A DNA stretch of 64,000 bases, from positions 62,067 through 126,066 of IMG/VR virus record IMGVR_UViG_3300006204_000004; one strand, given 5' to 3'. The notes under the pieces were generated by a model, which did not search any database, had not been told where the DNA came from, and saw only the letters and a program-made list of their open reading frames with translations. Source of the DNA: a virus (lineage: Duplodnaviria > Heunggongvirae > Uroviricota > Caudoviricetes). Below are positions 27,484 through 50,496 of this stretch, in pieces (within the stretch, counting starts at the first letter, position 1; each line of letters opens with the position of its first letter). The position numbers and the translations under genes are program-made.

Positions 27484-27507
27484 TTTTAGAAAGGAGAATT
27501 TATATTT

Positions 27508-28185: not shown

Positions 28186-28217
28186 TTAAAATTTATATTA
28201 AAAGGAGAAAAAATTTT

Positions 28218-31187: not shown

Positions 31188-31219
31188 CGAAATAAATTTC
31201 TCATTTACAGAAAATATAT

Positions 31220-31280
31220 CTTCCATCTTAGATGATTAATAGATTGAATTTTTATCTTGAATAATCATCTAAGATGGAAG
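31220..31280. terminator. Bidirectional hairpin between convergent cassettes A and B
   Basis: Perfect 19-bp inverted repeat CTTCCATCTTAGATGATTA ... TAATCATCTAAGATGGAAG with a 23-nt loop. Confidence 0.55.
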
Positions 31281-31298
31281 CATAGGAATATTTTTATT

Positions 31299-32129
31299 TT
31301 AATCTACATAAGTAACCTCTGATACACTACATTCATAAAACATCATCATTGTATCTGCTTGAGAAATTATCCATTTTGTCTTAGAAACAAAAATATTTAT
31401 AAGATTTGAGCAATATTGAAACATTCCAAGCATATTTTTAACCTTAGAAGTATTAAAACTTGCTAGGTCTAAAGATTTTAAATTTTTACATCCATTAAAC
31501 ATATTAGACATAGATTCTACTTTTTGTGTATCAAATGGAATAGTTAAATCACCTAGATTTTCACATTTACAAAACATGAAATCCATATCTGTTACATTAG
31601 ACGTAATTAATCCATCTATATTAAGATCTCTTAAATTTATACACTTATAAAACATATATTCCATATTTGTAACATTTGAAGTGTTAAAATTAGATAAATC
31701 TATAGATTCTATTTTTTCACATCCAGAAAACATATACTCTAAATTGACAACGTTAAACTTATTATTTCCCCAATTAATTGTTTTTAAATTTTTGCATCCA
31801 TCAAACATATGACTAAAATCTGTAAAATCAGAAATACCTATATCACTAAAATCTATTGATACTAAATCAACACAATGTTGAAATAATCGGCTCACTTCTC
31901 CAAATTTAACGCCATTTTTAAATGTTATTGATTTTATTCCATATGTCATAAAAAGTGCAAAATAATTACCACCATATCCATCATCCATACTAATAAATGT
32001 ATTATATTTTTTATTATTTACTGTATATGTATCATATATAGTTATATCCTTTGCTTCTCCTTTGTGTTTATACGAGTGTAATCGTATTTCATTATTTTCT
32101 TCATTTAAAATGTAACTCCAATCCAACAA
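31299..32129 (-). CDS. Promoterless alternative C-terminal BspA-LRR cassette B (inverted orientation)
   Basis: Homology to cassette A begins at NANFISI, encoded by R2' just upstream of the annotated TTG. The C-terminus ECSVSEVTYVD parallels ECGVSNVTYVD of cassette A. No upstream promoter or RBS context. Confidence 0.65.
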   Translation of the reverse strand: MLDWSYILNEENNEIRLHSYKHKGEAKDITIYDTYTVNNKKYNTFISMDDGYGGNYFALFMTYGIKSITFKNGVKFGEVSRLFQHCVDLVSIDFSDIGISDFTDFSHMFDGCKNLKTINWGNNKFNVVNLEYMFSGCEKIESIDLSNFNTSNVTNMEYMFYKCINLRDLNIDGLITSNVTDMDFMFCKCENLGDLTIPFDTQKVESMSNMFNGCKNLKSLDLASFNTSKVKNMLGMFQYCSNLINIFVSKTKWIISQADTMMMFYECSVSEVTYVD

Positions 32130-32140
32130 AGGATCTATAC

Positions 32141-32163
32141 CAATACTTATAAAATTGGCATTT
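32141..32163 (-). repeat. R2' inverted crossover site
   Basis: Exact reverse complement of 30572-30594 (AAATGCCAATTTTATAAGTATTG). Confidence 0.7.
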
Positions 32164-32299
32164 TAAGATCTATTCAGGCTTGTATTTGTATATAGATATG
32201 TGCCTGGCGTGGCTTAATTTGGGAAATAGAGTATATTTATTGTGTACTTTTGTAGAAAATTTTCGGAATGATTTTTTTGAGAACTATTTGAAGAAAACC

Positions 32300-32328
32300 T
32301 TGAAATCTATTGTCAGATATGCTATATT
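32300..32328 (+). promoter_or_regulatory. Sigma-A-like promoter for antitoxin-like sRNA A
   Basis: TTGAAA-17 nt-TATATT. Confidence 0.5.
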
Positions 32329-32334
32329 ATAAAT

Positions 32335-32430
32335 ATAAAAGGAGCAACCGCCCACAAAGTGGTTGACTTCCCAGGTTAATTATATAAACCTACCTGATCC
32401 GGCAAGATACAAGGTAGGTTTATTTATTTT
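32335..32430 (+). ncRNA. Candidate antitoxin sRNA A (par/RNAII-like), ends at bidirectional terminator
   Basis: ~95 nt from promoter to hairpin AAACCTACCT-16 nt-AGGTAGGTTT plus ATTTATTTT (32386-32430). Convergent with peptide gene A. Confidence 0.45.
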
Positions 32431-32519
32431 CGCTTGTTATTCCTATCTATGTAGGCAAGCAGCGCGATTAGAAAGTTACCGCCTAAAAGCAAAAGGCTTA
32501 AGACTTGGTAAGTATCCAT
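32424..32519 (-). CDS. Fst-like type I toxin peptide A (31 aa: MDTYQVLSLLLLGGNFLIALLAYIDRNNKRK)
   Basis: SD GGGAGGTGGTG 8 nt before the ATG. The SD can pair with upstream CCTCCCT (sequestering hairpin). Stop lies immediately at the shared terminator. Minus-strand promoter TTGAAG-17-TATGAT at ~32600-32628. Confidence 0.5.
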   Translation of the reverse strand: MDTYQVLSLLLLGGNFLIALLAYIDRNNKRK

Positions 32520-32694
32520 CTGCACCACCTCCCTTCTTTTCAAGTTAGGGAGGTTACCACCTTGTAACACGATTACTCCGTAAGATAATCATATCACAGA
32601 TGGTATCCTGCTTCAACAATTTTTTACATGATTCTCTATTGTTTTAAGGTGTGTTTGTACTTACGTCTTAAAAACTGCGATTATTTATTGATAG

Positions 32695-33906
32695 TTAGTT
32701 AATCGCAAGTGCTCCCCAAGGAGAGCCGGTGGCAGATCCGTGGTAAGTAATGTGAGGTACATTATAAAATGCGTCTGGGTCAATAGATTCAACAGATGAT
32801 GGAATTATTAAATTAGATATATTAGTACAATTATGAAATGCACTTCTTCCAATCTTTATTATACTATCAGGAATTATAAAATTCGTTAATAATTTTTGAC
32901 CATAGAATAATAGCGAAGGAATTTCTTCTATATTTTGAGATTGTATAGTAAAGCTTGTAAATTTTACAAATTGCCAAATATTACTTATTTTATTTACATT
33001 TTCTCCGATATATACATCACATCCGCTTTCGGAACATAAATATCGTAATTCAATACCAAATGTATCAGCATGATCTGAATTATAATAAAATTCTGTAACG
33101 CTTTTTGAATCTCCAAAACTTGAAGCATGATTACTTATTAGCTTATTATAACTATTTGGAATTGTAATTTTCTTTAAATTAGGACATTTATTAAAAATTC
33201 CTGCACCAATTTCTTCAACTCCTTCTGGAATATTTACACTTATCAAATTTGTTGCATTTTCAAATGCTAATTCATTAATAATTTTGACTGAATTTGGAAT
33301 TTCTATAGATGCTCCACTTCCAATTCCATCAATAGTTAATATAGAGCTACATTCTGAAAAACATCTTAAAGGTATTTCTTTAATGCCAGAAGAAAGAACT
33401 ATATGTTGTAAATTTGAACAACAAATACCATTTATTTTCGTTACGTTATTTGTCATATTAATTGTTTTCAATGACGAACTTCTTATATAATGTATATCAG
33501 AAACAGTATCAGGAAGTGATATACTTATTAAATCGTTAACTTCTTTAAGATTGATTTTGGTTGTTTTATATTTTTGACCATTAAATTCAAAGGTGTCAGG
33601 GACTATAACATCACCACTCAACGATGTTAATCCCGTTTTGGAATAATTGTTTTCTGTTAATTCAAAATCTTCATACTCGCTTTTCCCGCAAACAGTACAA
33701 ATTCCATCAACAAAGTCATGGTGTCCACTGGCAGGAATGGTTTCTGTATAAGTATCACCACATTCACAAGTATAAGTTATAATCCCATCTTCTGTACATG
33801 TAGCTTCTTTTGTAATTTCTTGGGTATAATTATGTACATGAATTATATCTATACTAATTGAAGAACTATTTCCAGCTCTATCAGTTAAGGATAATCTAAT
33901 ATTATC
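32695..33906 (-). CDS. Promoterless alternative C-terminal cassette C (Cys-rich repeat plus BspA-LRR), inverted orientation, no start codon
   Basis: Annotated ORF (TTG at 33621) continues in frame upstream to 33918 with no ATG. The 5' end DNIRLSLTDRAGN is encoded by R1' and parallels DNIRLSITDRAGN of the expressed gene. Confidence 0.6.
   Translation of the reverse strand, partial: DNIRLSLTDRAGNSSSISIDIIHVHNYTQEITKEATCTEDGIITYTCECGDTYTETIPASGHHDFVDGICTVCGKSEYEDFELTENNYSKTGLTSLSGDVIVPDTFEFNGQKYKTTKINLKEVNDLISISLPDTVSDIHYIRSSSLKTINMTNNVTKINGICCSNLQHIVLSSGIKEIPLRCFSECSSILTIDGIGSGASIEIPNSVKIINELAFENATNLISVNIPEGVEEIGAGIFNKCPNLKKITIPNSYNKLISNHASSFGDSKSVTEFYYNSDHADTFGIELRYLCSESGCDVYIGENVNKISNIWQFVKFTSFTIQSQNIEEIPSLLFYGQKLLTNFIIPDSIIKIGRSAFHNCTNISNLIIPSSVESIDPDAFYNVPHITYHGSATGSPWGALAIN
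33868..33906 (-). repeat. R1' inverted crossover site
   Basis: Reverse complement of 30537-30575 with 2 mismatches. Confidence 0.7.
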
Positions 33907-33966
33907 TGTTAAAATTAGCAGTTATTTATAAAAGATACCAGGAGATCACATCTTAAAAAATACATA

Positions 33967-33995
33967 TTGCATCTTTAAATTGTATATGCTATAAT
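33967..33995 (+). promoter_or_regulatory. Sigma-A-like promoter for sRNA B
   Basis: TTGCAT-17 nt-TATAAT. Confidence 0.5.
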
Positions 33996-34001
33996 TGTCA
34001 C

Positions 34002-34092
34002 AGGCAAAAGGATATAATAAGTCTATAAAGACAAAGAACGAAATCCCCGAACTGTGCTGGAACACTGTTCGGGGATTCTTCTTTACTTTTTA
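34002..34092 (+). ncRNA. Candidate antitoxin-like sRNA B ending at bidirectional terminator
   Basis: Hairpin AATCCCCGAAC-14 nt-GTTCGGGGATT at 34042-34077 followed by a T-rich tail. Convergent with peptide gene B. Confidence 0.4.
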
Positions 34093-34114
34093 TAGCGGTA
34101 AAGCATCCGCTAGG

Positions 34115-34261
34115 CTACTTGTTGTCCTCATTGTCGCTGTCCAACCATTTGCAGATATAGTAGGCAACTACACCAGCCATAACAGAAACTAAAAAGGATA
34201 TAATAATGTCTATAAAAACACCTCCTCCTGTTGCCAGGTATCGGTAAGACAACATAGTCAT
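34115..34261 (-). CDS. Small hydrophobic peptide B (48 aa: MTMLSYRYLATGGGVFIDIIISFLVSVMAGVVAYYICKWLDSDNEDNK), type I toxin-like
   Basis: TM core plus acidic tail. Directly downstream of the recombinase stop; its own stop abuts the shared terminator. SD is distant (AAAGGAG ~31 nt upstream), with possible coupling to a 5-codon leader. Confidence 0.4.
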   Translation of the reverse strand: MTMLSYRYLATGGGVFIDIIISFLVSVMAGVVAYYICKWLDSDNEDNK

Positions 34262-34304
34262 TATACCATATTCATCATTAATCGACAATATGCTCCTTTA
34301 TTAT

Positions 34305-35294
34305 TCAAATACAAAAATCTTTTCTTGGATGCTTCGTACACAGGATATCCTTTTGCTTTGAAACAGTAACATGCGTATATATTTCTGTAACATTGATAGA
34401 ACTATGCCCCAACATTTCCTGGATGTATCGAATATCTACATCTGCTTCTAATAAACTTGTTGCAAATGTATGCCGGAACATATGCGGTGTGATATGCAAG
34501 TTTATTTTAGCGACAGCAGCATACTTATTAATCATTCTGCGCACCGATTGATCGGATAAAGCTTCACCTATATTATTTATAAAAAAGTGATTTGTAGTTT
34601 CAATCTTTGTTCTGAATGTTTCTCTATATTCTTTTAGAATTTTTATTACTGGCTCATTTCCAATATGGATACGCCTTTCTTTGCTTCCTTTTCCGTAGAT
34701 CAATACTACTCCATTATCTAAATCAATATTGTTATCTTTTAGTTCACAAAGTTCTGATATCCTCATTCCTGTAGAAAATAAAAGCTCAATCACGGCTGCA
34801 TCCCTCAATGCATTTTTTCTTTGGTATTCTGTTTTAGAGTTATCTAATTGCTGATAAATAGATGCTAATAGTTTTTCTACTGTATTTAGTGGTATTGTTT
34901 TGGGTAATATGTTAGGTTCACGAAACTGTATTTGCAGTTTATTAAATGGATTTTTATAAATGATATCTTTGTATTCGAGATAATGAAAAAATGATTTTAT
35001 AGAAGCTATTTTTCTTTTGACAGTCTTTGGCTTATACTGTATATGTAGTTTAGATATATACTCTTCTATTGTGTTTGATGTGATATTTGTAATGGTAGGA
35101 TCTGAGATCCCTGCTGTAGATTGAACAAATTGTTTCAAATCAATACGGTATGCCTTTAATGTTTTTCGATCTAAACGCTTTTGTGACTCACAATATTTTA
35201 AATAATTTTCTATGTATGATTGTAAATTGCTTGTTAATGTGTTTGTAGACTTTTTCTTGGAGTAATTCTTTTCATTATTCATTGTTTTATTCAT
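34305..35294 (-). CDS. Tyrosine site-specific recombinase (XerC/D-Rci size), candidate shufflon invertase
   Basis: C-terminal catalytic region HTFATSLLEADVDIRYIQEMLGHSSINVTEIYTHV and an N-terminal core-binding domain. Lies ~400 bp from cassette C. Confidence 0.85.
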   Translation of the reverse strand: MNKTMNNEKNYSKKKSTNTLTSNLQSYIENYLKYCESQKRLDRKTLKAYRIDLKQFVQSTAGISDPTITNITSNTIEEYISKLHIQYKPKTVKRKIASIKSFFHYLEYKDIIYKNPFNKLQIQFREPNILPKTIPLNTVEKLLASIYQQLDNSKTEYQRKNALRDAAVIELLFSTGMRISELCELKDNNIDLDNGVVLIYGKGSKERRIHIGNEPVIKILKEYRETFRTKIETTNHFFINNIGEALSDQSVRRMINKYAAVAKINLHITPHMFRHTFATSLLEADVDIRYIQEMLGHSSINVTEIYTHVTVSKQKDILCTKHPRKDFCI

Positions 35295-35678
35295 GTTAGT
35301 TATATCTCCCTCTTTTGTATTTTTATTTTGTTTATATTCATTCTATCGAATACACATACAAAAGCCAATATATTTATCATTTATCTTAAATCTAAATAAC
35401 TAAATCTCAAAAAAGAAAGGAAATTAAATTTATGGAAATTTATATTAAAGAGGAAACTAAATTACAATTATTAGTTTCTACCCCCTCCCTTGAAGATTTT
35501 CAAGAAATTGTAGACAAAGTAACAGAATTAGAAAATAAAGTAAATCAAATACAAGTGCTTCTGGATCAGCAGAGTTAGTATAATACTTTACTGTATAGAA
35601 GTGTTTTTTTTAACATTTGATTTGCTTCTTATTAACGCTAATTATATAACTAAATATAATAAGAAAGGACGAAATTAT

Positions 35679-36972
35679 ATGTATAATTACGACATGTATG
35701 TAAAAAAAGAAAACGAATTGCATTTTTTAAAAAACTCTTCTAGTACAGTAGCTGCTGAAATTATGACAGGAGCAACTGACAGTTCGAATGGAAAAGAAGG
35801 ACTTGTACCAGCTCCTACTTCTATTGATAAAAATAAATATTTAAAAGGAAATGGTATTTGGAGCGATATAGAATATTCTAAAAAAGCTGAACAAGATGAA
35901 AATGGTAATAATATTTTTGATACATATGCAAAGAAAAGTTTATATGTTGATAATATTGTGAGTGTTGGAAGGAAAGATGGATCAAATATTGGAGAATATA
36001 GTATTGCTATTGGTGATAGGGTAACTGCTTCTGAAAGAAGTAGTTACGCAGAAGGAGCTTTAACAATTTCATCTGGTGAAAATGCACATGCAGAGGGACT
36101 ATTTACCACTGCGAGCGGTTATACTTCTCACTCAGAGGGGGGGAGAAACTGTCGCTTCTGGAACCATGTTTCATGCAGAAGGTGATAGAACGAAAGAGAT
36201 AGGAGACGCGTCTCATGCAGAAGGTTATTTTACAATTACTAGAAAATTTAATTCTCATGTTTGTGGACAATATAATGTAGATTCAACTTATATTTCGAGT
36301 CTTCCTATATTTGCTATAGGAAATGGGATGAATGAAGGTAGTCGATCTAACGCATTTTCTGTAATGGATAATGGAATAACTAAATCAGCATCAACGATTA
36401 CAGCAGAAACAACAGCAGATTATGCGGAATTTTTTGAATGGGAAGATGGAAATATTAATAATGAAGATAGAGTAGGAAAGTTTGTAACTTTTCATGGAGA
36501 TAAAATTGTTATTGCTAATTCTAAGAATGATTATATTCTTGGTATTATATCTGGAGCACCTTTTGTTTTAGGAAATGGAGACTGCGATGTATGGACAGGG
36601 ATGTGGTTAAGGGATGAATTTAATCGTATTATTTATGAACCAGCCCCGAAGACAGAAATTGATGAATCGACAGGTGATATAAAAGAAGTATTTGATGAAG
36701 ATGGGAATTTAATTTATGAAGGTAAGAGATGCAAACTTAATCCAAAATATGATTCATCGCAGAAATACATTTCAAGATTTGATAGAGTAGAATGGTCACC
36801 TGTAGGAATGCTGGGTGTTTTATCTGTTATTCAAGACGGTACCTGTGAAGTAGACGGCTATTGTTGTTGTTCTGACGATGGAATTGCTACTGCTTGTGAT
36901 AGAAATACAGAAGGTGCTTACAGGGTAATTAAGAAGATTTCTGATCGAGTTGTAAGGGTAGTGTTTAGATAA
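35679..36972 (+). CDS. Second tail-fibre protein with (x)ASGxxSHAEG repeats, interrupted by a +1 frameshift in a G7 tract
   Basis: N-terminal fibre motif EGLVPAPTSIDKNKYLKGNGIWSDI. Repeats YAEGALTISSGENAHAEGLFTTASGYTSHSEGG | ETVASGTMFHAEG continue in the next frame. RBS AAGAAAGGA 9 nt before the ATG at 35679. Confidence 0.55.
36137..36143 (+). repeat. G7 homopolymer at the frameshift site
   Basis: GAGGGGGGGAGAA. G6 would restore the reading frame. Confidence 0.9.
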
Positions 36973-37768: not shown

Positions 37769-37807
37769 TTCGAGTAACGATTATTCAAAGTATTGTTTAT
37801 AAACTCT

Positions 37808-38782
37808 TTATTGCTTATTTTTATTATAAAAATCTATCGCTTTTATAATATATTCTTCGACCTCTTCATCTTTAATGCATTTGGGGATAATTTTTCTTAC
37901 CTTTCTAAAATCTAATCTATGACTTTGTGTAACCGTTACTCGAAGTTGGAGTAGCTGAGATTCTATAAAAGTTTTCTTTTCTTCATATGTTTTTAATTTT
38001 TTATCCAAAATATTGTTTCTTATTCCTTTGACCATTTTTTCATTTATCTTAAAATCATTCAAATAATTAAGTATTATTCGTTGTGCATCCGAATCTAAAA
38101 AAGCCAGTTCATAGGCTAATCTAATAGAGATTTTTTTTCGATCCACTAAAACTTTTGCATCGTCAATGAGTTCGTTTAGTTTTAAATATATATTAATCAT
38201 TTTCCTTGTCAGACCATGTTCTTCACCTATCTTATCACCAGACAACTTTGAGTAACCGTTACTCGAAGCAATGCCTTGATGTCTTTCTGCATCCATTTTC
38301 ACTTTAATAGAATAAGCAAGCTGCATGGGTTTATAATCATTTCTTTGTCTATGTATCAAATTATCATCAATACATATAAGCTCTATCTGGTCGTTAGATA
38401 AATCTTTTTTCAAAATATATGGTACTTCCAGATTTAACTCTTTAGCTATATCTACACGATTATGTCCACTCAATATCATGAATTTATCATCCTTTTTTAC
38501 ACAAATAACAGGTGTAAAAATACCATTTAATTGAATAGATTCTTTTAATCGTTCTCTATCTTCCCCATGATGTAAATCTAATCTAAGCTTTTCGTCCTCA
38601 TAAGGTATAAACATATTTGCAGGGGCAGTAAGTATTTCATTCTCTAAGTTTTGTTCCTTTTCTAATTCTCTAGCAATTGTTTTTGTAAGATTATCGTCAG
38701 AAGATTCTTCGTTTAGCATTCCAACATAATCCATTTCCTGATCCATAAATCTATTTTTTCTAGCCATCCAGATCCTCCTCAT
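37808..38782 (-). CDS. parB: ParB-family partition protein
   Basis: ParB N-terminal box (TPVICVKKDDKFMILSGHNRVDIAKELNL) plus HTH region. Overlaps the parA stop. Confidence 0.75.
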   Translation of the reverse strand: MRRIWMARKNRFMDQEMDYVGMLNEESSDDNLTKTIARELEKEQNLENEILTAPANMFIPYEDEKLRLDLHHGEDRERLKESIQLNGIFTPVICVKKDDKFMILSGHNRVDIAKELNLEVPYILKKDLSNDQIELICIDDNLIHRQRNDYKPMQLAYSIKVKMDAERHQGIASSNGYSKLSGDKIGEEHGLTRKMINIYLKLNELIDDAKVLVDRKKISIRLAYELAFLDSDAQRIILNYLNDFKINEKMVKGIRNNILDKKLKTYEEKKTFIESQLLQLRVTVTQSHRLDFRKVRKIIPKCIKDEEVEEYIIKAIDFYNKNKQ

Positions 38783-39599
38783 ATATATCTATAATTCTCT
38801 TAGCAATTTTTTTATAATCTAATGAAGCATTATTAAATTTTTCATAAGCTTGTAATGGCATACATAGGGTTTTTATTTCAGCCATTTTAATCGTCTTTCT
38901 CACCGTAGATACAAATACATCCCCTGGGAGAGCTTCTGTAATTTTTTGCAAATTTTCAAATGCTTTTTTGTGTGAATTGGTTGATTCATATATAGCTAAA
39001 ATAATTCCTATAATATATGCATGAGATTCTTTATTTCGAGAATCGCGTAATTTTTTTAGATCTTGTTCTACAGCAATGATACCGCGAATTGAATTATCAT
39101 CAGATAGAGTAGGGCAGATGATATAATCTGCTGCAATATATGTCATATTAAGTAAAACGTTTCTAGCTGGTGGATTATCAATAATAATAAAATCATATTT
39201 TTTTAAAAGTATTTCACATACATCTTTTAGTAAATAAATATCATCACGCTCCATATATGTCTTATCAGCTTTAGACAGTATTGGAGAAGCAGGAATTATA
39301 TCATACCATTCTACTGAATATATTGCATCAGCAATTTTACATTCTTGTTGAAAAATATCATGTATTGTATACTCTGGTGATTTTATTCCTGAATTTCTAC
39401 TTGAATCACATTGTTGATCTAAATCAATTAGTAAAACTTTATATCCTTCATTGGTTAAACATGCAGCTATTTCAATGGCTGAACTGGTTTTTGCCGTTCC
39501 ACCTTTTTGGCTGCACAAAGCAAATACTTTACCCATTTCATTTCCTTTCTTTTTGTTGATAATGTAATTATAGCAAGGGTAATTAAAAAAATCAATCAT
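38760..39599 (-). CDS. parA: ParA/Soj-family partition ATPase
   Basis: Deviant Walker A KGGTAKTSSAIE. Probable true start MGKVFAL at ~39536. Confidence 0.8.
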   Translation of the reverse strand: MIDFFNYPCYNYIINKKKGNEMGKVFALCSQKGGTAKTSSAIEIAACLTNEGYKVLLIDLDQQCDSSRNSGIKSPEYTIHDIFQQECKIADAIYSVEWYDIIPASPILSKADKTYMERDDIYLLKDVCEILLKKYDFIIIDNPPARNVLLNMTYIAADYIICPTLSDDNSIRGIIAVEQDLKKLRDSRNKESHAYIIGIILAIYESTNSHKKAFENLQKITEALPGDVFVSTVRKTIKMAEIKTLCMPLQAYEKFNNASLDYKKIAKRIIDIYEEDLDG

Positions 39600-39865
39600 T
39601 TAATAGGATATATTAAATTTAAAGTACAAATTGTATTTTAATACTTTGCAAATGTATAATAAATATTATGATACTATATTTATAGTTGAATTGTGAAAAA
39701 AATGAGAATGTAATTGATGTTGTTTTCATTGATACAACATTTTTATTTCTTATTTATGGATCATTGTTTAGTTGATTTTATCGTATCTTCAGTGTTATTT
39801 GACGTTAAAATATGTAGATTGTTTTGTATTCTGTTGTATATTTAAGCGAGATGAATTGTATTTTA

Positions 39866-40260
39866 TAACGGTGAACTTTGTAGAAAAAATCTATGTATTT
39901 TAACGGGATAATTTATAGATAGAAAGGATATAAAATGTATGTTATACAGTGAATTTTGTAGAAATATTTTCAAAACGCCTACATTAAATACCGTTAAATA
40001 GTCGTCCTATTAAAATTCTTAGATAAAATTCAAAGATTTAACGGTATTTTATGTAGGTGTTTACATATTTAACGTTTGAATATGTAGATATATTCTGCAA
40101 TGCTAAATATTTATAACGTAGTAATACGTAGATAAATCATATATTTAACGTTTAATTACGTAGAAAATAAGTATAAATTTATTCAGCAGCAAATTTTTAA
40201 TTGACTTTAACGGTGAAAATGTAGATAATAATATATTATAGCGGTGAATTTGTAGAATAC
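39866..40260 (+). repeat. Iteron array (at least 9 copies of ~20 bp TAACGGTGAA..TGTAGAA, one inverted) upstream of rep; candidate theta-replication origin
   Basis: Copies at 39866, 39901, 39945, 39975 (inverted), 40038, 40069, 40114, 40145, 40207, 40239. Confidence 0.7.
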
Positions 40261-40261
40261 G

Positions 40262-41485
40262 ATGGGGGAGAAATATATGTCTGATAAATATGAAGAAAAA
40301 AATGTGCCATACAAAGATAATAAGTATTCAAAATCAAATTATCTAATATCTGCAAAATATGCTTCAAGTCTACTAGAAAATAAAATAACTGCTATATCGT
40401 TGGCAAAAATACAAAAAAAAGAGTATACAGAAGATAAGAATGGCAGAATTGTATGTAGTATGACTGCTAATGAATTGAGAAAATTGTTAAATGCGAATGC
40501 AGGATCGTTTTATTCACAGTTAGAACCAGTGGCGATGAATATGACATCAAGGACTATTGGGTTTAGTGATCCTAGTAGAAATGGTGGAATGTTTGACTAT
40601 ATTTCTGTTATAGATAGAGCAAGGTATGAAAATGGGGTATTTAGTATATTCTACAATTCGGACGTTAAAGAATATTTATCCGATTTTAAAGCAAATTTTA
40701 CAGTTTTAGAATTGCCTACGATGTTAAAATTTAAAAACGTATATAGTTTTAGATTGTATGAATTATTATCTAGTAAGTCATATTATAGAAAAGGTATTCC
40801 TAAAGAGCTAAAAACACAGGTGTTTAGGATCGAATTTAATTTGTCAGAATTGAAGCTAAACATGGGAGTAGTAAATGCTGAATTGGATGCTGTACGAAAA
40901 GAATTAAATAATAAACAGGCACCAAATTATGATAAGGCAATAGAAAAATCCCCTGAAAAAAAATTTAATACATGGTATGAATTTAAAAGGGGAGTGTTGG
41001 ATACAGCCATAAAGGAAATAAACAATAAAACAGATATGAAAGTAAGTTTCAATCCTTTGAAGGGTGGTCGGGGAGCTAAGGTATATGGCGTAGAATTTAT
41101 TGTTGATTTGACGGGCAAAAATGTAGAAGCTATTGAAAATGTTTTAGAAACAGTAAAAGAAATGACTGATGATGAAAAAATTGATTTTGTCATAGATGCA
41201 AAGATGATTCTTAAAGAATTTTCTACTAAAGATGTAAGAGTAATTTGTGAAAAGTCGGGATATGATATTGAAAAAATAAAAGAAGCGTATCACATATATT
41301 CTAAACAAAAAAATATATCTAATCCTACAGGATGGATGATTTCTTGTATAGAGAATGAGTATCAAAATGATTGGGATACTGGAAATGAAAAGAATAGTAG
41401 TTTTAATAATTTTAGTCAAAGAAAGTATAACTATGAAGAATTGGAACGGGAGTTACTCAATATGGGAATGTTTCACGGAAAATGA
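40262..41485 (+). CDS. Plasmid replication initiator (Rep_3-like, iteron-binding)
   Basis: Immediately downstream of the iterons. N-terminal region LISAKYASSLLENKITAISLAKIQ is typical of Rep_3 initiators. Confidence 0.6.
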   Translation: MGEKYMSDKYEEKNVPYKDNKYSKSNYLISAKYASSLLENKITAISLAKIQKKEYTEDKNGRIVCSMTANELRKLLNANAGSFYSQLEPVAMNMTSRTIGFSDPSRNGGMFDYISVIDRARYENGVFSIFYNSDVKEYLSDFKANFTVLELPTMLKFKNVYSFRLYELLSSKSYYRKGIPKELKTQVFRIEFNLSELKLNMGVVNAELDAVRKELNNKQAPNYDKAIEKSPEKKFNTWYEFKRGVLDTAIKEINNKTDMKVSFNPLKGGRGAKVYGVEFIVDLTGKNVEAIENVLETVKEMTDDEKIDFVIDAKMILKEFSTKDVRVICEKSGYDIEKIKEAYHIYSKQKNISNPTGWMISCIENEYQNDWDTGNEKNSSFNNFSQRKYNYEELERELLNMGMFHGK

Positions 41486-41595
41486 GTTTGGTATTTTACA
41501 TAGATTTTTACCACATAATACGTGGTAATTTATATGTGATATATCTATAAAGAAAAAGACCTTAAAAGTTATATTTCATTTGATTTAAAAATCTT

Positions 41596-42267
41596 GTGAA
41601 AGGGAATGTTTCACGGAAAATGCCTAAAAATAAAATTGTCAAGACCTTACCAGATAGGATATTTTATAGATTGTGGAAAGCAGCAGATAGTGATATTAAG
41701 ATCTATGAGTATATAGATTCTTTTACAAGTCCATTGTCAAATACTTACATTGATTTTCGTAAGAAGTACAAGCTGGATGAATTACAAGTTATAAAGATGC
41801 TGGAAAATATATACAGAGCAGCACATTTGAATGTAAGAGAAATCATAGATGCATCCGGGAGGAAAAAGGCAGATATAGGTTACATATTTTGTATTCCCAT
41901 TCGGACACTTGAAGACTGGTGCTCTGGAAAGAATAAATGTCCATCTTACGCCAGGCTGATGATGATAAGAAAGTTTGAGCTGTTGAATCTGGGCAAATAC
42001 ATTTATCTTGAGTCTGATAATCATATTGTGTATAATGCATATAAGAGTAGAAGGGTAGAAGTAGAACGGAAGAATGCAGAAATTGTGATGACAGAAAATA
42101 ATATAGATATTGATAATAAAAACGATTATCGTATATCTAATAAGAATGGTTATATGATGTCTATGAAAGAATATGAGCAGTTACATGTTCACAATAGTAA
42201 TAAAGATATACAAGATATTATTGCAGCAACAGATTATCTGAGGGACTATATGAAAAAAGGTAATTAA
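41596..42267 (+). CDS. Hypothetical protein
   Basis: The 5' end repeats the last 21 nt of rep (GGGAATGTTTCACGGAAAATG). Confidence 0.4.
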   Translation: MKGNVSRKMPKNKIVKTLPDRIFYRLWKAADSDIKIYEYIDSFTSPLSNTYIDFRKKYKLDELQVIKMLENIYRAAHLNVREIIDASGRKKADIGYIFCIPIRTLEDWCSGKNKCPSYARLMMIRKFELLNLGKYIYLESDNHIVYNAYKSRRVEVERKNAEIVMTENNIDIDNKNDYRISNKNGYMMSMKEYEQLHVHNSNKDIQDIIAATDYLRDYMKKGN

Positions 42268-42283
42268 GAAAGAGGAGATATAT

Positions 42284-42850
42284 ATGGATGCTTTTAAATT
42301 AGATAATTATGAAAATGATAAATGTACAATCGAAGATATATATGCTTTACCAGATGGACAAAGGGCAGAGCTGATTGATAGCGAATTATATATGATGGCT
42401 ACTCCTAGTAGAATTCACCAAAGAATTGTTATGGAATTGTCATTTAGAATAAGAGATTATATAGGAAATAAGAATTGGGATTGTGAAGTGTATCCAGCAC
42501 CATTTGCAGTATTTTTAAATGCTAATAATGATATTTATGTAGAACCTGATATTTCTGTGATTTGTGATAAGAACAAGCTAACTGATGAAGGGTGCAATGG
42601 TGCACCGGATTGGATTATAGAGATTGTTTCTCCGTCAAGTCGTCCAATGGATTATAATAAAAAGCTATTCAAATATAGGACGGCAGGAGTGAGGGAGTAT
42701 TGGATTGTTGATTATGAACGTAATCTTATAACTGTTTATAACTTCGAGAATGATGAAATGAGAGATTATACATTTATAGATGAGGTAAAAGCTGGAATAT
42801 ACGATGATTTTGTAATTGACTTTTCAGTGATTAATATTGACGAACAATAG
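42284..42850 (+). CDS. Uma2/DUF820-family PD-(D/E)xK endonuclease
   Basis: Motifs EPDISV..D, DWIIEIVSPSS, REYWIVD. Confidence 0.8.
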   Translation: MDAFKLDNYENDKCTIEDIYALPDGQRAELIDSELYMMATPSRIHQRIVMELSFRIRDYIGNKNWDCEVYPAPFAVFLNANNDIYVEPDISVICDKNKLTDEGCNGAPDWIIEIVSPSSRPMDYNKKLFKYRTAGVREYWIVDYERNLITVYNFENDEMRDYTFIDEVKAGIYDDFVIDFSVINIDEQ

Positions 42851-43030: not shown

Positions 43031-43142
43031 AGAAACAGCCAAAGGGTATTTGCACGTCCGATGGTTGTCACCGGAAACTAATTGTGTTTCAAATTAATTT
43101 AGGCTATCCCCTATTGCGAGTAGGTGATAGCCCTTTTATTTG
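43031..43142 (+). ncRNA. Candidate antitoxin sRNA C (RNAII-like)
   Basis: ~110 nt ending at hairpin GGCTATC-17 nt-GATAGCC plus CTTTTATTTG (43102-43142). Convergent with peptide gene C. Confidence 0.45.
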
Positions 43143-43213
43143 CGGTGGTTGTCGAGATAAGATAAAGCTGCGAATACAACTAACAGCAACGTCAAAATTT
43201 CTAACGTATCCAT
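43136..43213 (-). CDS. Fst-like type I toxin peptide C (25 aa: MDTLEILTLLLVVFAALSYLDNHRK)
   Basis: SD AAAGGAGGT 4-5 nt before the ATG. 5' UTR hairpin CTTTCC-gggaac-GGAAAG overlaps the SD. GGTGGTTGT at the mRNA 5' end is complementary to ACAACCACC at its 3' end. Paralogous to peptide A. Confidence 0.5.
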   Translation of the reverse strand: MDTLEILTLLLVVFAALSYLDNHRK

Positions 43214-47627: not shown

Positions 47628-48071
47628 TTATTTTATTCCAGTGCTTCCATGTCCGCCTCGATTTGTATGATTTAGTTTAGAGACTTCATAAAATTCGAAT
47701 TCAGGTTGATGCTCTAAAATTCTAAATTGACATATTCTATCATTTATGTGTATTTCTGTATCTCGCATTGCAAGTGCGGGGAAAAACCATTGATCATTGT
47801 CTCCACAATAGGATTCATCAATAAGTCCCATGTGATTTGTTTGTATTATACCGAAATTTTTAAAGGTAGAACTTCTTGGTATTATATGTGCTTCATATCC
47901 TTTTGGTAATTGTACAGCTATCCCAAGAGGTATTAATTTAAATTCTCCTTTTTTTAGTTTTATATTTTCTGCTGATCTCAAATCAATCCAATCTGATTTT
48001 CCGTTAATATAACATAATTTCTCAATTTTATCTGAAAAATATTTAATGTATATTTTTATTTTTTCTTTCAT
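47628..48071 (-). CDS. dut: dUTP diphosphatase
   Basis: Motifs [24 protein letters not shown]. Confidence 0.85.
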
Positions 48072-48892
48072 TAATAATCCTTTCTTTATAATATATTTTA
48101 AGATTAAATCTTGATTTTTACTTTATAAAAATTATGTTAAACCAATATTACAGTTTATTATTTAGTACTTTTATGCTCACATGGAATACGTTGTCCATAA
48201 ATATATTTTTTATTTTTTAATTTGCAATGTATAATTATTTTTGCTTTATTAGTTTCATCTAAAATACTATAATTACAATTTTCACATTCATTTGTTGTTA
48301 TCATTTTTTCACTCATGAATTTTAATCCTCTTTTTCTTTATTTTACATTTTTTAATTTGTTTGTTGATATTTTTATATATCATTTTTAGTATATCTTCGA
48401 AATTACCATATTCATAATTATAAAATGGAATATAATAATTTCCTTTTAGGTCATATACATTTAGAAAAATAGATCCATCAGTTGTGTCAATTGTGATTTC
48501 TCCTTCTATAGAAGCAGATGAATTATATTTTACAACAGGAAAACGCATAGAATAATATTTTCTGTCGCAATCACTTATTATTTTATTATAAGAAAATCCT
48601 AAAGCATGTAAGTTTTTATGGGAGAAGTCTTTCATTATGTATTTATTTTTTAATATATTTTCCAAGTAAATTATCCTTTCATAATTTTATTTAGAACTTA
48701 TGATTAATTATTTTTATTAGTAAGTTTTAATATATCAGAAATAAATGATAGTGTGTGTAAAGGATCATTTAGAAAAATTATATTTATAAAGTCTTCTATA
48801 GAAAACTTATAATTATTTATAATATTAGAATCATTAATTGAATTATTTTTATGAGGAATATTTTTTGTCACTTTATCTAACTCCATAAATAT

Positions 48893-49402
48893 TTAGTTTG
48901 TTACTATATGTTTGTCGTCATTTGTAATGTAGTAATTTTGAATTACACCTTGACAAAATGGTTTGCCTTGATCTATATTAAATTCAAATTCGCTATTGTT
49001 TGTCATTTTAATAATAATATGATATTCTTCTGTTGGATCTGAATTATTTGCGTCGATAATACCAGTTATATTTACAAGATCAAAATTGGATATCGAATTA
49101 TTATTTTGAGTATGAAATAATAAAATTTTATTATCTGGGATTTTTGTACATTTAATTCCAGTTGGTATTACCATTTCTCCTTCCGAACAAAAAATTACAT
49201 CCATAGGAATAAAAAAATCATATCCTGCAGATTTGTTTGTTTTACGCGTTGGAAGTTTTATATTATTATACATAGCTTGAATGTATTCAGGGTTGTTTTC
49301 ATCTTCTGGGAAAAATTTTATCCAATCTCTTGTAAATATCTCTATAGATACTTTCTCAAATCGTGTTGTTGTTATATTTTCTGGTTTTAAATTTTTTCTC
49401 AT
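48893..49402 (-). CDS. dUTPase-like fold protein (divergent, lacks motif V)
   Basis: SAGYDF (motif I-like), IPTGI, GKPFCQGVI. Confidence 0.4.
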   Translation of the reverse strand: MRKNLKPENITTTRFEKVSIEIFTRDWIKFFPEDENNPEYIQAMYNNIKLPTRKTNKSAGYDFFIPMDVIFCSEGEMVIPTGIKCTKIPDNKILLFHTQNNNSISNFDLVNITGIIDANNSDPTEEYHIIIKMTNNSEFEFNIDQGKPFCQGVIQNYYITNDDKHIVTN

Positions 49403-49541
49403 ATAAATTCCTTTCCTTGTTATAATTTTGTTTTTACATATATGATTATGTTATAAATCTTTTACTTAACGGTTGCTATGTGCATAACCTATTAACTCCT
49501 TTACCTATTTGCCAATGCTCATTTTAAAATCATCTAATGTT

Positions 49542-50075: not shown

Positions 50076-50496
50076 TTGTTTTCCCTCCTACAACAATCCC
50101 TCATTCAGATTTTCAAGACTGATTTTCATTCCGTCAACTTTTCCGTTTCTTATACTCTCCACATCTGCAATCGCAAGATAAGACTTATCAAAATCCTTCT
50201 TGTCAATTAAAAACGCAAAGCATAGCCCCACGTCTTTTAATGCCTTTTTCAAAAGATCTAAATGTAGTGAAATGTATTGTTTTTGTTCATCTGTCATCTT
50301 ACAAATTCCTTCCTCTCCAAATTTCCGCACCTATGCGTACCAATCAAATCAAAATCATCTTTACATCTGCATTTCTTCCTTTTGACATCTTCCTCTGACA
50401 GCCAAGCCTGATGCAATCTGCACCAATATGTAGGATTTTTACATATTTTATTGTCAAGCCCCATTAATGGATGTCTTTGGTCTGCTATTTGGTAGG

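What the first reader, a model, noticed from the sequence alone, without database searches (positions are those of the whole stretch)
37808..41625. Plasmid-type maintenance (parAB, iteron origin, Rep) physically linked to a phage tail module: phage-plasmid signature
parB/parA (37808-39599) are followed by at least 9 iterons of ~20 bp (TAACGGTGAA..TGTAGAA, 39866-40260, one inverted). A Rep_3-like initiator (40262-41485) and two type I TA modules follow. These lie within 1 kb of phage fibre genes and 8 kb upstream of phage nucleotide-metabolism genes. No integrase/attachment architecture typical of an integrated prophage is seen. The tyrosine recombinase present is better explained as the invertase. 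This fits an extrachromosomal phage-plasmid, as in Clostridium botulinum c-st-like or P1-like lifestyles.
Basis: partly seen in the sequence, partly recalled or inferred. Interest (0 to 1): 0.6.

Follow-up and report, generated by a model that had tools for sequence, protein, structure and literature searches.

The report
Plasmid replicon inside a large gut phage
A complete low-copy-plasmid maintenance cassette (partition genes, repeated origin sites, initiator protein) sits inside the genome of a very large SPbeta-like tailed phage of mouse-gut Lachnospiraceae. The element is therefore most likely a phage that lives as a plasmid, which is a known lifestyle, here in a lineage not yet described.

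Summary
parB (37808-38782) and parA (38760-39599) are followed by an AT-rich spacer. Then come 10-11 iterons (TAACG-N8/9-GTAGA, 39800-40257, one inverted), where about 2 would be expected by chance in the whole window. A Rep_3 initiator follows (40262-41485).

I add three features. A 15-bp palindrome repeated inside parB is a candidate parS. Two conserved iteron-like sites lie inside rep. A conserved partner gene sits at 41596-42267.

The cassette lies between siphovirus tail genes and phage-type nucleotide-metabolism genes. The same order recurs in Eubacterium plexicaudatum ASF492 (238-kb contig) and in many mouse-gut contigs. On those contigs the same molecule also carries portal, SPbeta-type head and tail genes, holin and endolysin.

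The only recombinase in the window belongs to an invertible LRR tail-fibre switch. Relatives carry a second, XerD-like recombinase outside the window, so integration cannot be excluded.

Only one type I toxin-like gene follows rep; a paralogue lies at 32.4 kb.

The phage-plasmid reading is supported (about 0.7). The extrachromosomal state is inferred, not shown. The virion module is related to SPbeta-like phages, not to P1 or c-st. Verdict: new member of a known kind, moderate interest.

The parts
37772..37786 (.). Degenerate third copy of the candidate parS palindrome, just downstream of the parB stop codon
   Evidence: 2 mismatches to GAGTAACCGTTACTC. All matches in the 64-kb window lie in or next to parB. 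Chance expectation is 0.05.
37927..37941 (.). Candidate parS copy inside parB (GTGTAACCGTTACTC)
   Evidence: It lies 323 bp from the other copy, so the two are in different reading frames and are not a repeated peptide. It is kept at the same position in L024, L076, L023, L025 and L001.
38250..38264 (.). Candidate parS copy inside parB (perfect 15-bp palindrome GAGTAACCGTTACTC)
   Evidence: The L005 lineage, whose ParB is only 66% identical, carries a different palindrome at the equivalent position (ACTTTGGGAAC-TCA-GTTCCCAAAGT).
37808..38782 (-). parB (ParB_N plus HTH, Spo0J-like). The likely true start is the ATG at 38767.
   Evidence: Gene calls of 318-319 aa in identical contigs.
38760..39599 (-). 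parA (small Soj-like Walker ATPase with no N-terminal HTH)
39600..39799 (.). AT-rich spacer (15-25% GC). It is the divergent parA promoter region and a candidate DNA-unwinding element.
   Evidence: 100-nt windows. Promoter-like sites on the minus strand at 39697-39668 and 39658-39630, with another at 39595-39567 just inside parA. Function is inferred.
39800..40257 (+). Iteron array: 9 direct copies, 1 inverted copy (39978-39996) and 1 degenerate copy (about 39943) of TAACG-N8/9-GTAGA. Most spacings are about 31, 44 or 62-66 bp (3, 4 or 6 helical turns); 35 bp is the exception.
   Evidence: Arrays with the same half-sites and variable middles are present upstream of rep in L005/L006, L024, L076, L023 and L025.
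40201..40229 (+). Promoter-like site for rep (TTGACT-17-GATAAT), overlapped by the iteron at 40208; the iteron at 40239 starts 10 nt downstream. This suggests autorepression.
   Evidence: The regulatory role is inferred.
40262..41485 (+). rep, a Rep_3 family initiator (WH1 plus WH2). From the sequence, the second ATG at 40277 is the likelier start because GGGGGAG lies before it.
   Evidence: 182 homologues at E<=1e-10, all 120 listed carrying Rep3_N and Rep3_C; sources name them plasmid replication initiators.
40650..40667 (-). Iteron-like site inside rep
   Evidence: Exact match to the N8 pattern. Kept at the same position in L005, L024, L076 and L023.
41109..41127 (+). Second iteron-like site inside rep, inverted relative to the first
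   Evidence: The half-sites are kept while the middle varies between lineages.
41596..42267 (+). Conserved unknown gene (223 aa) that always follows rep in the phage-type relatives
   Evidence: 76-87% identical in L005/6/7 and L024. Present in L076-78 and L089-94. Absent from L023/L025. Only match is phrog_25567, function unknown.
42284..42850 (+). Uma2-family endonuclease-like gene, part of the conserved block
   Evidence: 1e-30. Conserved in relatives.
43139..43213 (-). Candidate type I toxin (MDTLEILTLLLVVFAALSYLDNHRK) with an AGGAGG Shine-Dalgarno sequence. Terminator-like hairpin at 42978-42960. A possible addiction module.
   Evidence: Peptide conserved in L003, L006 and L024. No Rfam family matches. 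Function is inferred.
10091..17758 (+). Tape-measure-type giant protein (2555 aa) with an NlpC/P60 domain
   Evidence: phrog_4211, phrog_329.
20623..29180 (+). Distal tail (Dit), Tal-like 1446-aa protein with an S74 chaperone domain, and three fibre or baseplate-type genes
   Evidence: Identical block in Logan contigs.
29523..35294 (.). Invertible LRR/BspA tail-fibre switch. It comprises an expressed gene (29523-31187, +), two promoterless cassettes on the minus strand (open to 32162 and 33921), and a tyrosine recombinase (34305-35294, -).
35601..36972 (+). Fibre or appendage gene with a Peptidase_G2 autoproteolytic domain. It is split into two frames here but is one 410-aa ORF in ASF492.
47628..63253 (-). 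Phage-type nucleotide and DNA metabolism block: two dUTPases, Lar, NrdG, NrdD, dNMP kinase-like, ThyX, SPFH, NAD-dependent ligase

Best explanation
The window is part of a very large (probably more than 200 kb) temperate SPbeta-like siphovirus of mouse-gut Lachnospiraceae (Eubacterium plexicaudatum group). I propose that it maintains its prophage as a low-copy plasmid.

Proposed mechanism, all steps inferred:
- Rep (Rep_3, WH1 plus WH2) binds the 10-11 helically phased iterons at 39800-40257.
- This melts the adjacent AT-rich stretch (39600-39800) and starts theta replication.
- Rep bound at or beside its own promoter (the iteron at 40208 overlaps it, the one at 40239 starts just downstream), and perhaps to two inverted sites inside rep, limits its own synthesis and the copy number.
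- The divergent parA-parB operon segregates the copies. ParB loads on the palindromes inside and next to parB, and the Soj-like ParA ATPase moves the complexes apart.
- A small hydrophobic toxin gene downstream may add post-segregational killing.
- Lytic growth would use the phage's own DNA-metabolism genes and the SPbeta-type virion and lysis genes.

Shown here: the domain identities, the repeat statistics, the conservation of every cis element in relatives, and the co-residence of the cassette with virion and lysis genes on the same contigs.

Inferred: origin firing, centromere function, autoregulation and the extrachromosomal state.
For: Cassette identity.

Iterons: 10 matches within 460 bp against about 2 expected per 64 kb. 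Arrays are conserved in five diverged relatives, with constant half-sites and variable middles.

Candidate parS: 3 sites, all in or at parB, against 0.05 expected. Positions are conserved, and the palindrome changes together with a diverged ParB.

Embedding in phage DNA.

Linkage is not an assembly artefact. An independent scaffold, L001, joins the fibre gene to parB-parA-rep at 97-99% identity. The same gene order occurs in ASF492, in IMG/VR contigs and in contigs listed from 55 blocks of the assembly collection.

Whole-element content in relatives:
- The 96-kb contig 3300006201_000008 holds portal (5.6e-70), holin, endolysin, anti-repressor, RusA, two tape-measure genes, Dit, Tal, fibres and then parB-parA-iterons-rep.
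- A single 105,391-bp contig carries portal, the XerD-like recombinase and Rep.
- Precomputed Pfam hits to YonB, YonD, YonG, YomU, YomV, YomW and YomX, plus an RdRP-family polymerase gene (which I take, from my own knowledge, to be YonO-like), place the virion and transcription modules with SPbeta.

Stable carriage: the element is in the axenic isolate ASF492. Its 238-kb contig overlaps an IMG/VR viral call at 99.9%.

Precedent in the same portal family: 17 PLSDB 'plasmids' of 122-197 kb carry portal homologues. phiCD211/phiCD5763 are extrachromosomal 131-kb siphophages (PMC5786514).

In L083 the second recombinase is flanked by phage genes on both sides, so in that assembly it is not at a host junction.
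Against: No direct evidence of circularity, copy number or absence of chromosomal junctions. I could not read the ends of the 238-kb ASF492 contig or of any other long contig.

A conserved 340-aa tyrosine recombinase lies about 8 kb upstream of the portal in relatives. Several contigs end close to it. Homologues about 70% identical occur on Mb-size chromosomal contigs (P0287). An integrative or dual lifestyle therefore remains possible.

In MAG contigs L023 and L025 the same parB-parA-rep cassette (about 80% identical, about 28% GC) sits next to cellular-type genes of 41-45% GC. The cassette can therefore occur in a host-like context.

The Pfam ParB hit is below its threshold. No DnaA-box enrichment was seen.
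Confidence: 0.7

Rival explanations
1. Integrative, or dual-lifestyle, temperate phage. The prophage normally sits in the chromosome through the conserved XerD-like recombinase found upstream of the packaging genes in relatives. The Rep_3/ParAB cassette would then serve only transiently, for example as an episome after infection or excision, or during early theta replication.
For: The recombinase is conserved in L079, L082 and L083. The 86-kb contig ends about 0.5 kb from it. Close homologues sit on chromosomal-size contigs. Low-GC rep cassettes lie in a host-GC context in L023/L025. pBtic235 is reported to integrate transiently (PMC9700832). Pfeifer et al. note that phage-plasmids may alternate between states (PMC7969092).
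Against: A full partition system with a conserved centromere candidate, and an iteron copy-control layout, are hard to explain without long-term plasmid maintenance. In L083 the recombinase is flanked by phage genes on both sides. No tRNA gene was found in the window, and I did not search for direct repeats at its edges.
Confidence: 0.17
2. A megaplasmid that merely hosts an integrated prophage, as in the 'Hodor' Rep_3/ParAB megaplasmids of the human gut. Rep and par would belong to the plasmid backbone and the tail genes to a passenger prophage.
For: The Hodor preprint describes 211-389 kb Rep_3 plus ParA/ParB megaplasmids, often filed in viral databases, some with embedded prophages (PMC12934698). 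The closest PLSDB Rep hits are 242-kb Butyrivibrio and Roseburia plasmids.
Against: The cassette is flanked on both sides by phage-type genes. It keeps that position across lineages that differ by 15-35% in protein sequence. No T4SS, relaxase or sortase genes appear in the 64 kb or in any locus read. IMG/VR calls about 168 kb of ASF492 DNA viral (57 kb plus 110.5 kb). The 110.5-kb piece overlaps the 238-kb contig. Placing the 57-kb piece on the same contig is my inference from gene spacing. Phage-type genes are seen from about 18 kb to at least 41 kb of the 238,379-bp scaffold. The best PLSDB Rep identity is only 40.7%.
Confidence: 0.08
3. A defective remnant. The cassette and tail genes would be decaying leftovers in a chromosome and no longer form a working phage or plasmid.
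For: The fibre gene at 35601-36972 is frame-split in the window. The ToxN-like ORF looks truncated. L023 shows 4 kb without long ORFs next to the cassette.
Against: Almost all large ORFs are intact. Identical or near-identical copies occur in many samples. Relatives have complete virion, lysis and packaging sets. The cis elements are conserved in detail.
Confidence: 0.05

Closest known systems
Rep_3-family iteron theta replicons (RepE of mini-F, pi of R6K, RepA of pPS10/pSC101, and Gram-positive theta plasmids)
   Same: Initiator with WH1 plus WH2 domains above the Pfam thresholds. A weak direct sequence match to RepE structures. An array of about 19-bp iterons directly upstream of rep, next to an AT-rich stretch. 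An iteron overlapping the rep promoter.
   Different: Identity to any deposited plasmid Rep is at most 40.7%. No DnaA-box enrichment was found. Two conserved iteron-like sites lie inside the rep ORF. The host replicon is a phage genome.
Phage-plasmids in the sense of Pfeifer et al. 2021 (P1, N15, SSU5, pBtic235 and others)
   Same: Virion and lysis genes and plasmid replication plus partition genes on one molecule. Cargo of defence systems and toxin genes. Large size. pBtic235 is a 235-kb circular jumbo prophage whose repA-containing region is dispensable for lytic growth but needed for lysogeny (PMC9700832). That is the division of labour I propose here.
   Different: No sequence relationship to P1 or c-st was found: Rep and Dit searches of 50,697 phage records returned only uncultured gut phages. 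From my own knowledge, not tested here, P1 is a myovirus whose larger ParA carries an HTH domain. Here ParA is small and Soj-like, and the candidate parS lies inside parB, as in B. subtilis spo0J (also from my own knowledge).
Big plasmid-borne siphophages of Clostridioides difficile (phiCD211/phiCDIF1296T, phiCD5763) and other SPbeta-like large siphoviruses found as 'plasmids' in PLSDB
   Same: Distantly related portal (22-29% identity). Genomes of 120-200 kb. Firmicute hosts. Carried as extrachromosomal circles.
   Different: The C. difficile phages are reported to use ParM-like segregation (PMC5786514), not ParAB plus Rep_3. No record in the phage or plasmid collections matches the window DNA at megablast level, and none in the plasmid collection has its Dit.
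Bacillus phage SPbeta
   Same: Relatives carry the YonB, YonD, YonG, YomU, YomV, YomW and YomX domains, an RdRP-family polymerase gene that I take to be YonO-like (from my own knowledge), a giant tape measure with a cell-wall hydrolase domain, and nucleotide-metabolism genes.
   Different: From my own knowledge, SPbeta integrates with the serine recombinase SprA and has no plasmid replicon. This lineage has a Rep_3/ParAB cassette, tyrosine recombinases and a genome that seems to be nearly twice as large.
'Hodor' conjugative megaplasmids (bioRxiv 2026, PMC12934698)
   Same: [quoted passage not shown] Gut Bacillota. Often classified as viral. More than 200 kb.
   Different: Hodors are conjugative and encode sortases and huge surface proteins, and prophages are passengers in a minority of them. 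Here no conjugation genes were seen and the cassette is internal to the phage gene order.

Membership tests
Rep_3 iteron-type replicon | Initiator with Rep3_N (WH1) and Rep3_C (WH2) domains | tested here: met
   79.7 and 39.0 bits against cut-offs of 22.4 and 21.1. All listed homologues carry both domains.
Rep_3 iteron-type replicon | Array of directly repeated initiator-binding sites next to rep | tested here: met
   10 pattern matches in 39800-40257 against about 2 expected per 64 kb, with 0 of 100 shuffles reaching the totals. Conserved in relatives. Binding itself was not tested.
Rep_3 iteron-type replicon | AT-rich unwinding region and host-factor (DnaA) boxes | tested here: inconclusive
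   15-25% GC at 39600-39800. DnaA-box matches are not enriched: 34 against 25.7 expected, with only one imperfect match in the origin.
Rep_3 iteron-type replicon | Supports autonomous replication | not testable with these tools
   Needs cloning of 39.6-41.5 kb into a non-replicating vector.
ParABS (Walker-type) partition system | ParA with a deviant Walker A ATPase fold | tested here: met
   AAA_31 at 3e-34; Soj structures at 2.4e-21; a KGGTAKTS motif in the sequence.
ParABS (Walker-type) partition system | ParB with ParB_N and HTH domains, encoded downstream of parA | tested here: met
   Pfam hits are below their cut-offs (22.1 and 17.6 bits). Supported by 8 ParB-named PHROG families, best 1.7e-16, and by ParB/Spo0J structures, best 2.8e-5 over residues 74-252. 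Overlaps parA in an operon.
ParABS (Walker-type) partition system | Cis-acting centromere bound by ParB | tested here: inconclusive
   A candidate was found: a palindrome repeated only in or at parB, with conserved positions, which changes together with a diverged ParB. Binding was not tested.
Phage-plasmid | Virion, packaging and lysis genes on the same molecule as plasmid genes | tested here: met
   The window holds the tail module and the cassette. In relatives, portal, holin, endolysin and tail-tube-like genes lie on the 96-kb contig that carries the cassette, and a 105-kb contig carries portal, recombinase and Rep. SPbeta-type head domains were seen on other relative contigs. The head half of the window's own molecule lies outside the 64 kb.
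Phage-plasmid | Prophage maintained extrachromosomally | not testable with these tools
   No reads, no contig ends and no complete assemblies were available. No close relative is in PLSDB.
Phage-plasmid | No dependence on an integrase | tested here: inconclusive
   The window's only recombinase is tied to the LRR inversion switch. Relatives have a second, XerD-like recombinase outside the window's range.
SPbeta-like large siphoviruses | SPbeta-type head and tail proteins and a YonO-type RNA polymerase | tested here: met
   Precomputed Pfam hits in relatives L079, L082 and L083. Portal tblastn hits go to SPbeta-like and other 120-170 kb siphoviruses. This was seen in relatives, not in the window itself.
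P1-like or c-st-like phage-plasmids | Sequence relationship of the replicon or virion genes to P1 or c-st | tested here: not met
   Rep and Dit tblastn against 50,697 phage records returned only uncultured gut-phage records. DNA searches found nothing.
Hodor-type conjugative megaplasmids | T4SS/relaxase and sortase-linked surface module | tested here: not met
   None among about 50 window ORFs scanned, nor in the relative loci read. Regions outside the loci were not seen.

The most novel reading that the evidence does not exclude
The element is a circular jumbo phage-plasmid of about 238 kb that is resident in Eubacterium plexicaudatum ASF492, a member of the Altered Schaedler Flora used in gnotobiotic mice. 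Its compact 3.8-kb parS-parB-parA-iteron-rep cassette is a mobile replicon module that also turns up in non-phage, host-GC contexts in related genomes. If so, a standard laboratory community has carried an unrecognised giant plasmid-prophage. The cassette would also be a ready-made replicon for genetic tools in Lachnospiraceae, which largely lack them.
Probability: 0.4. Interest if true: 0.55.

Novelty: new member of a known kind. Interest (0 to 1): 0.4.

Why it matters
Phage-plasmids are well documented in enterobacteria, Bacillus and Clostridium. Very few are described for the dominant gut Clostridia, and I found none for this lineage in the phage, plasmid or literature collections I could search.

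If the plasmid state is confirmed, three things follow:
- A large fraction of 'viral' contigs from mouse-gut metagenomes would belong to plasmid-like residents. These carry defence islands, phase-variable receptor-binding proteins and secreted proteases.
- A member of the Altered Schaedler Flora would carry a jumbo plasmid-prophage that could be induced and studied in gnotobiotic mice.
- The small, well-delimited rep/par cassette could seed shuttle vectors for Lachnospiraceae.

It adds no new principle.

Tried and rejected
- Megablast of 34-48 kb against the phage and plasmid collections found nothing.
- An Rfam gathering scan of the whole window found nothing, so there is no support from known antitoxin RNAs.
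- DnaA boxes are not enriched.
- GC skew follows transcription direction and does not mark an origin.
- The tRNA scan was empty, so there is no tRNA-type att candidate in the window.
- TRF found no ToxI-like array near the ToxN-like ORF.
- Exact-protein look-ups with the hsdM and ligase ORFs failed, probably because the ORF-list starts are wrong or, for hsdM, the gene is cut by the window edge.
- The N-terminus of the window's tape measure retrieved only a 50% relative. I therefore walked upstream through Dit and the relatives' own proteins.
- I first read MAG contigs L023/L025 as megaplasmids sharing the replicon. The 28% GC cassette beside 41-45% GC cellular genes, and a 4-kb ORF-poor stretch, make an integrated or decayed copy equally likely. 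I left this open.
- I suspected that the 238,379-bp metagenome scaffold was the ASF492 element because the lengths nearly match. Its 21-kb locus has no megablast match to any ASF492-derived locus I hold, though I did not confirm that those loci cover the same region, so I did not equate the two. The similar length is only suggestive of a complete genome size.
- A search for perfect palindromes around parAB gave few hits, until the 15-mer inside parB proved to be repeated and conserved.

Full report
**What is at the coordinates**

The window is AT-rich (about 29% GC). On the minus strand, 38760-39599 encodes a 279-aa Walker-type ParA. It matches AAA_31 at 3e-34, phrog_164 at 7.6e-43, and Soj structures at 2e-21.

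It overlaps by 23 nt a 324-aa ParB at 37808-38782. The Pfam ParB_N and HTH_ParB hits are below their cut-offs. However, eight ParB-named PHROG families match (best 1.7e-16), as do ParB/Spo0J structures (best 2.8e-5 over residues 74-252).

Divergently, 40262-41485 encodes a Rep_3 initiator with both winged-helix domains above threshold. It also gives a weak direct match to RepE of mini-F.

**The origin region**

Between parA and rep lies a stretch of about 200 bp at 15-25% GC, followed by the iteron array.
- TAACG-N9-GTAGA (at most 1 mismatch) hits 8 times in 39800-40164. One hit is inverted, at 39978.
- The N8 form hits at 40208 and 40239.
- Chance expectation for the whole 64 kb is 2.0 and 1.75, and no shuffle reaches the totals.
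- A degenerate copy lies near 39943.
- Most spacings (31, 32, 44, 62, 66 bp) are close to whole helical turns; one is 35 bp.
- A promoter-like site, TTGACT-17-GATAAT at 40201-40229, is overlapped by the iteron at 40208, and the last iteron (40239) starts 10 nt downstream. This is the usual layout for autorepression, but that role is inferred.

The array starts 66 bp earlier than stated and has 10-11 copies.

Candidate parS. A 15-bp palindrome, GAGTAACCGTTACTC, occurs at 38250 (perfect), 37927 (1 mismatch) and 37772 (2 mismatches). These are the only matches in the window, against 0.05 expected.
- The two best copies lie inside parB, 323 bp apart, so in different reading frames.
- They are kept at the same positions in five relatives.
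- In the lineage whose ParB is only 66% identical, a different perfect palindrome occupies the equivalent position.
- This co-change makes it a good parS candidate.
- From my own knowledge, not tested here, B. subtilis also has a parS inside spo0J.

Intragenic iteron-like sites. Two sites lie inside rep, at 40650(-) and 41109(+). They are conserved in position in four relatives, while their middles vary. They may serve copy control, but this is unproven.

**Downstream of rep**

The genes that follow are a conserved unknown (41596-42267; only match phrog_25567) and a Uma2 endonuclease-like gene (42284-42850). Both travel with rep in all phage-type relatives.

The claim of 'two type I TA modules' is only partly borne out.
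- One 25-aa hydrophobic peptide gene lies at 43139-43213(-). It has an AGGAGG ribosome-binding site and a terminator-like hairpin, and it is conserved in relatives.
- A paralogue lies at 32433-32519(-), not after rep.
- Rfam finds no known RNA.

**Surroundings in the window**

Left of the cassette:
- a 2555-aa tape-measure-type protein with an NlpC/P60 domain
- Dit
- a 1446-aa Tal-like protein with an S74 chaperone domain
- fibre-like genes
- three LRR/BspA genes
- a tyrosine recombinase
- a Peptidase_G2 fibre gene

Further left is a defence island with type I hsdM/hsdS, an AAA_21 plus DUF4435 pair, and DUF3825.

Right of the cassette:
- an M4 metalloprotease with Listeria-Bacteroides repeats
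- then, on the minus strand: two dUTPases, Lar, NrdG/NrdD, a dNMP-kinase-like gene, ThyX, an SPFH protein and an NAD-dependent ligase

The plasmid cassette is thus flanked by phage-type genes on both sides.

**The recombinase in the window**

The plus-strand LRR gene (29523-31187) shares two short sites with the regions just upstream of the two minus-strand LRR ORFs.
- 30537-30575 matches the site upstream of one cassette, and 30573-30594 matches the site upstream of the other.
- Those ORFs have no start codon of their own. Their frames are open up to 32162 and 33921, exactly into the shared sites.
- Inverting 30537-33906 in silico gives a single 741-aa ORF.
- The other cassette begins with the same NANFISI peptide as the expressed gene.
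- Contigs from two other samples stop at window position 30554. This is what an assembler does at a site that exists in two orientations.
- The recombinase has a 69% identical orthologue next to an LRR gene in L076. It is absent from lineages without inverted cassettes.

I therefore agree that it is an invertase for tail-fibre switching, not the integrase of the phage.

**Relatives and the rest of the element**

No deposited phage or plasmid matches the DNA. Public assemblies, however, hold many relatives.
- Logan contigs from run ERR2497922 are 100% identical to parts of the window.
- An independent scaffold (L001) links the fibre gene to parB-parA-rep at 97-99% identity. The linkage is therefore not an assembly chimera.
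- Rep homologues at 77-88% identity sit in the same gene order in IMG/VR contigs of 89 and 96 kb, in a 105-kb ENA contig, in contigs listed from 55 blocks of the assembly collection, and in the isolate Eubacterium plexicaudatum ASF492 (contig AQFT02000004.1, 238,228 bp, Rep at about 98.6 kb).

I walked upstream along the 96-kb IMG/VR contig and found, in order:
1. portal (phrog_2739, 5.6e-70)
2. capsid-region genes
3. a tail-tube-like protein with an Ig domain
4. holin, endolysin, anti-repressor and RusA
5. a first tape-measure gene (1272 aa)
6. a defence island of about 16 kb (ToxN, GmrSD, a transposase)
7. the second tape-measure gene
8. Dit, Tal and fibres
9. parB-parA-iterons-rep, 63.5 kb from the portal

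Precomputed Pfam hits on related contigs name YonB, YonD, YonG, YomU, YomV, YomW and YomX domains, plus an RdRP-family polymerase gene that I take to be YonO-like from my own knowledge of SPbeta. The virion and transcription modules are thus SPbeta-like.

Portal homologues occur in 120-170 kb siphoviruses of Bacillus, Lactococcus, Staphylococcus and Clostridioides. They also occur in 17 PLSDB 'plasmids' of 122-197 kb.

**Size and state of the element**

- The ASF492 locus overlaps the IMG/VR viral call 2563367173_000002 (110.5 kb) at 99.9% identity.
- A second viral call from the same genome (57 kb) holds the head genes.
- If, as the gene spacing suggests, the 57-kb piece lies on the same contig, then with the tail and replicon region between them most of the 238-kb contig would be this element. 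That placement is an inference, not a read-out.
- A different, diverged relative sits on a 238,379-bp scaffold.
- More distant relatives give several contigs of 157-164 kb.

I could not read any contig ends. Circularity and the absence of host flanks therefore remain untested.

**Points against a pure plasmid lifestyle**

- Relatives have a conserved 340-aa XerD-like recombinase about 8 kb upstream of the portal.
- On the 238-kb scaffold it is flanked by phage genes on both sides, so there it is not at a host junction.
- One contig ends about 0.5 kb from it, and the 96-kb contig ends a few kb short of where it would lie. Homologues about 70% identical occur on chromosomal-size contigs.
- It could be a dimer resolvase, as in many plasmids and P1, or an integrase.
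- In two MAG contigs the parB-parA-rep cassette (about 80% identity, about 28% GC) lies next to cellular-type genes of 41-45% GC: DUF4317, CarD-like, LarC, AAA plus VWA, and MCP. This could be a chromosomal remnant or another replicon using the same module.

**Comparison with what is known**

The replicon works like classical Rep_3 iteron plasmids joined to a Soj/Spo0J-like ParABS system.

The whole element fits the phage-plasmid category of Pfeifer et al. They note that such elements need no integrase, may carry recombinases, and are frequent in Bacillus and Clostridia (PMC7969092).

The nearest functional precedents are:
- pBtic235, a 235-kb circular jumbo prophage whose repA region is dispensable for lytic growth but tied to lysogeny (PMC9700832)
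- the 131-kb plasmid-borne siphophages of C. difficile, which use ParM instead (PMC5786514)

P1 and c-st are analogies only. No sequence link was found.

The 'Hodor' megaplasmids share Rep_3/ParAB and large size. They are conjugative backbones with passenger prophages (PMC12934698), which the conserved internal position of the cassette argues against here.

**Verdict**

- The main open point is direct evidence for the extrachromosomal state.
- The finding is a new member of a known kind. It is of moderate interest because the lineage is undescribed, appears very large, is widespread in mouse-gut data and is present in a standard gnotobiotic strain.

Noticed in passing
window 29523-35294: A shufflon-like tail-fibre switch. 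One expressed LRR/BspA gene, two promoterless inverted C-terminal cassettes that can be fused in frame at shared sites, and an adjacent tyrosine recombinase. Contigs from other samples break at 30554.
   Followed up: yes
window 1-9968 and 10091-17758; L035:7445-11263; L029:8909-16900: In relatives there are two tape-measure-type genes (1272 aa and about 2660 aa), separated by a variable defence island of about 16 kb. The window starts inside that island and holds only the second gene. The second gene is also markedly GC-richer (38-39%) than its surroundings (about 29%).
   Followed up: partly
window 1-7267: A defence island: type I hsdM (cut by the window start) and hsdS, an AAA_21/AAA_15 ATPase plus DUF4435 pair (which from my own knowledge resembles the PARIS AriA/AriB pair), and DUF3825. 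The variant contig L017 has the same hsdS (100% identical), a 65% identical ATPase/DUF4435 pair, plus PemK and GmrSD.
   Followed up: partly
window 35601-36972: The Peptidase_G2 fibre gene is split into two overlapping ORFs in different frames. ASF492 has a single 410-aa ORF. In scaffold L001 similarity to the window stops at 36182, so the C-terminal part is swapped there. This could be a frameshift, a recombination scar or a sequencing error.
   Followed up: partly
window 32433-32519 (-): A second small hydrophobic toxin-like ORF (MDTYQVLSLLLLGGNFLIALLAYIDRNNK), a paralogue of the one at 43139-43213. It lies between the two inverted LRR cassettes.
   Followed up: no
window 17923-20182: A DUF3800 gene and a 109-aa ORF with a weak ToxN hit lie between the tape measure and Dit. 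Relatives carry other cargo in this slot, including a 165-aa ORF without a Pfam hit, and a full 163-aa ToxN lies upstream of the tape measure in L029. No ToxI-like repeat array was found; there is only a 16-nt x4 repeat at 19310-19379.
   Followed up: partly
window 43616-47179: A 1187-aa secreted M4 (thermolysin-type) metalloprotease with four Listeria-Bacteroides repeats, carried as cargo next to the replicon. In L005 it is fused to the Uma2 ORF (917 aa). In ASF492 I found no protease homologue between Uma2 and the first dUTPase gene, and that interval is at 38-44% GC.
   Followed up: no
L023:5057-11167 and L025:961-5929: The same parB-parA-iteron-rep cassette (about 80% identity, about 28% GC) sits beside cellular-type genes of 41-45% GC in two 'uncultured Eubacterium' MAG contigs. 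There is an IS insertion between parA and rep in L025, and an ORF-poor 4 kb in L023. This could be an integrated remnant or a second kind of replicon.
   Followed up: partly
L079:526-1548; L082:1-791; L083:10001-11023: A conserved 340-aa XerD-like tyrosine recombinase about 8 kb upstream of the portal in relatives. In L083 it is flanked by a large RdRP-family polymerase gene (likely YonO-like), PhoH, ClpP and HU on one side, and by endolysin and packaging genes on the other.
   Followed up: partly
window 57444-57683 (-): A 79-aa ORF with a LexA_DNA_bind domain (annotation from the identical contig L012), between nrdD and the dNMP-kinase block. It is a possible small repressor or regulator.
   Followed up: no
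AQFT02000004.1 (238,228 bp) and ERZ28587063 scaffold_17 (238,379 bp): Two contigs of almost the same length, apparently carrying diverged relatives of this element. This hints at a complete genome of about 238 kb, but the ends were not examined.
   Followed up: partly
L056-L059 (IMG/VR contigs of 97-164 kb): Four contigs of more distant relatives end within 6-185 bp of the 3' end of the ligase gene. This suggests a recurrent assembly break or a genome terminus there.
   Followed up: no
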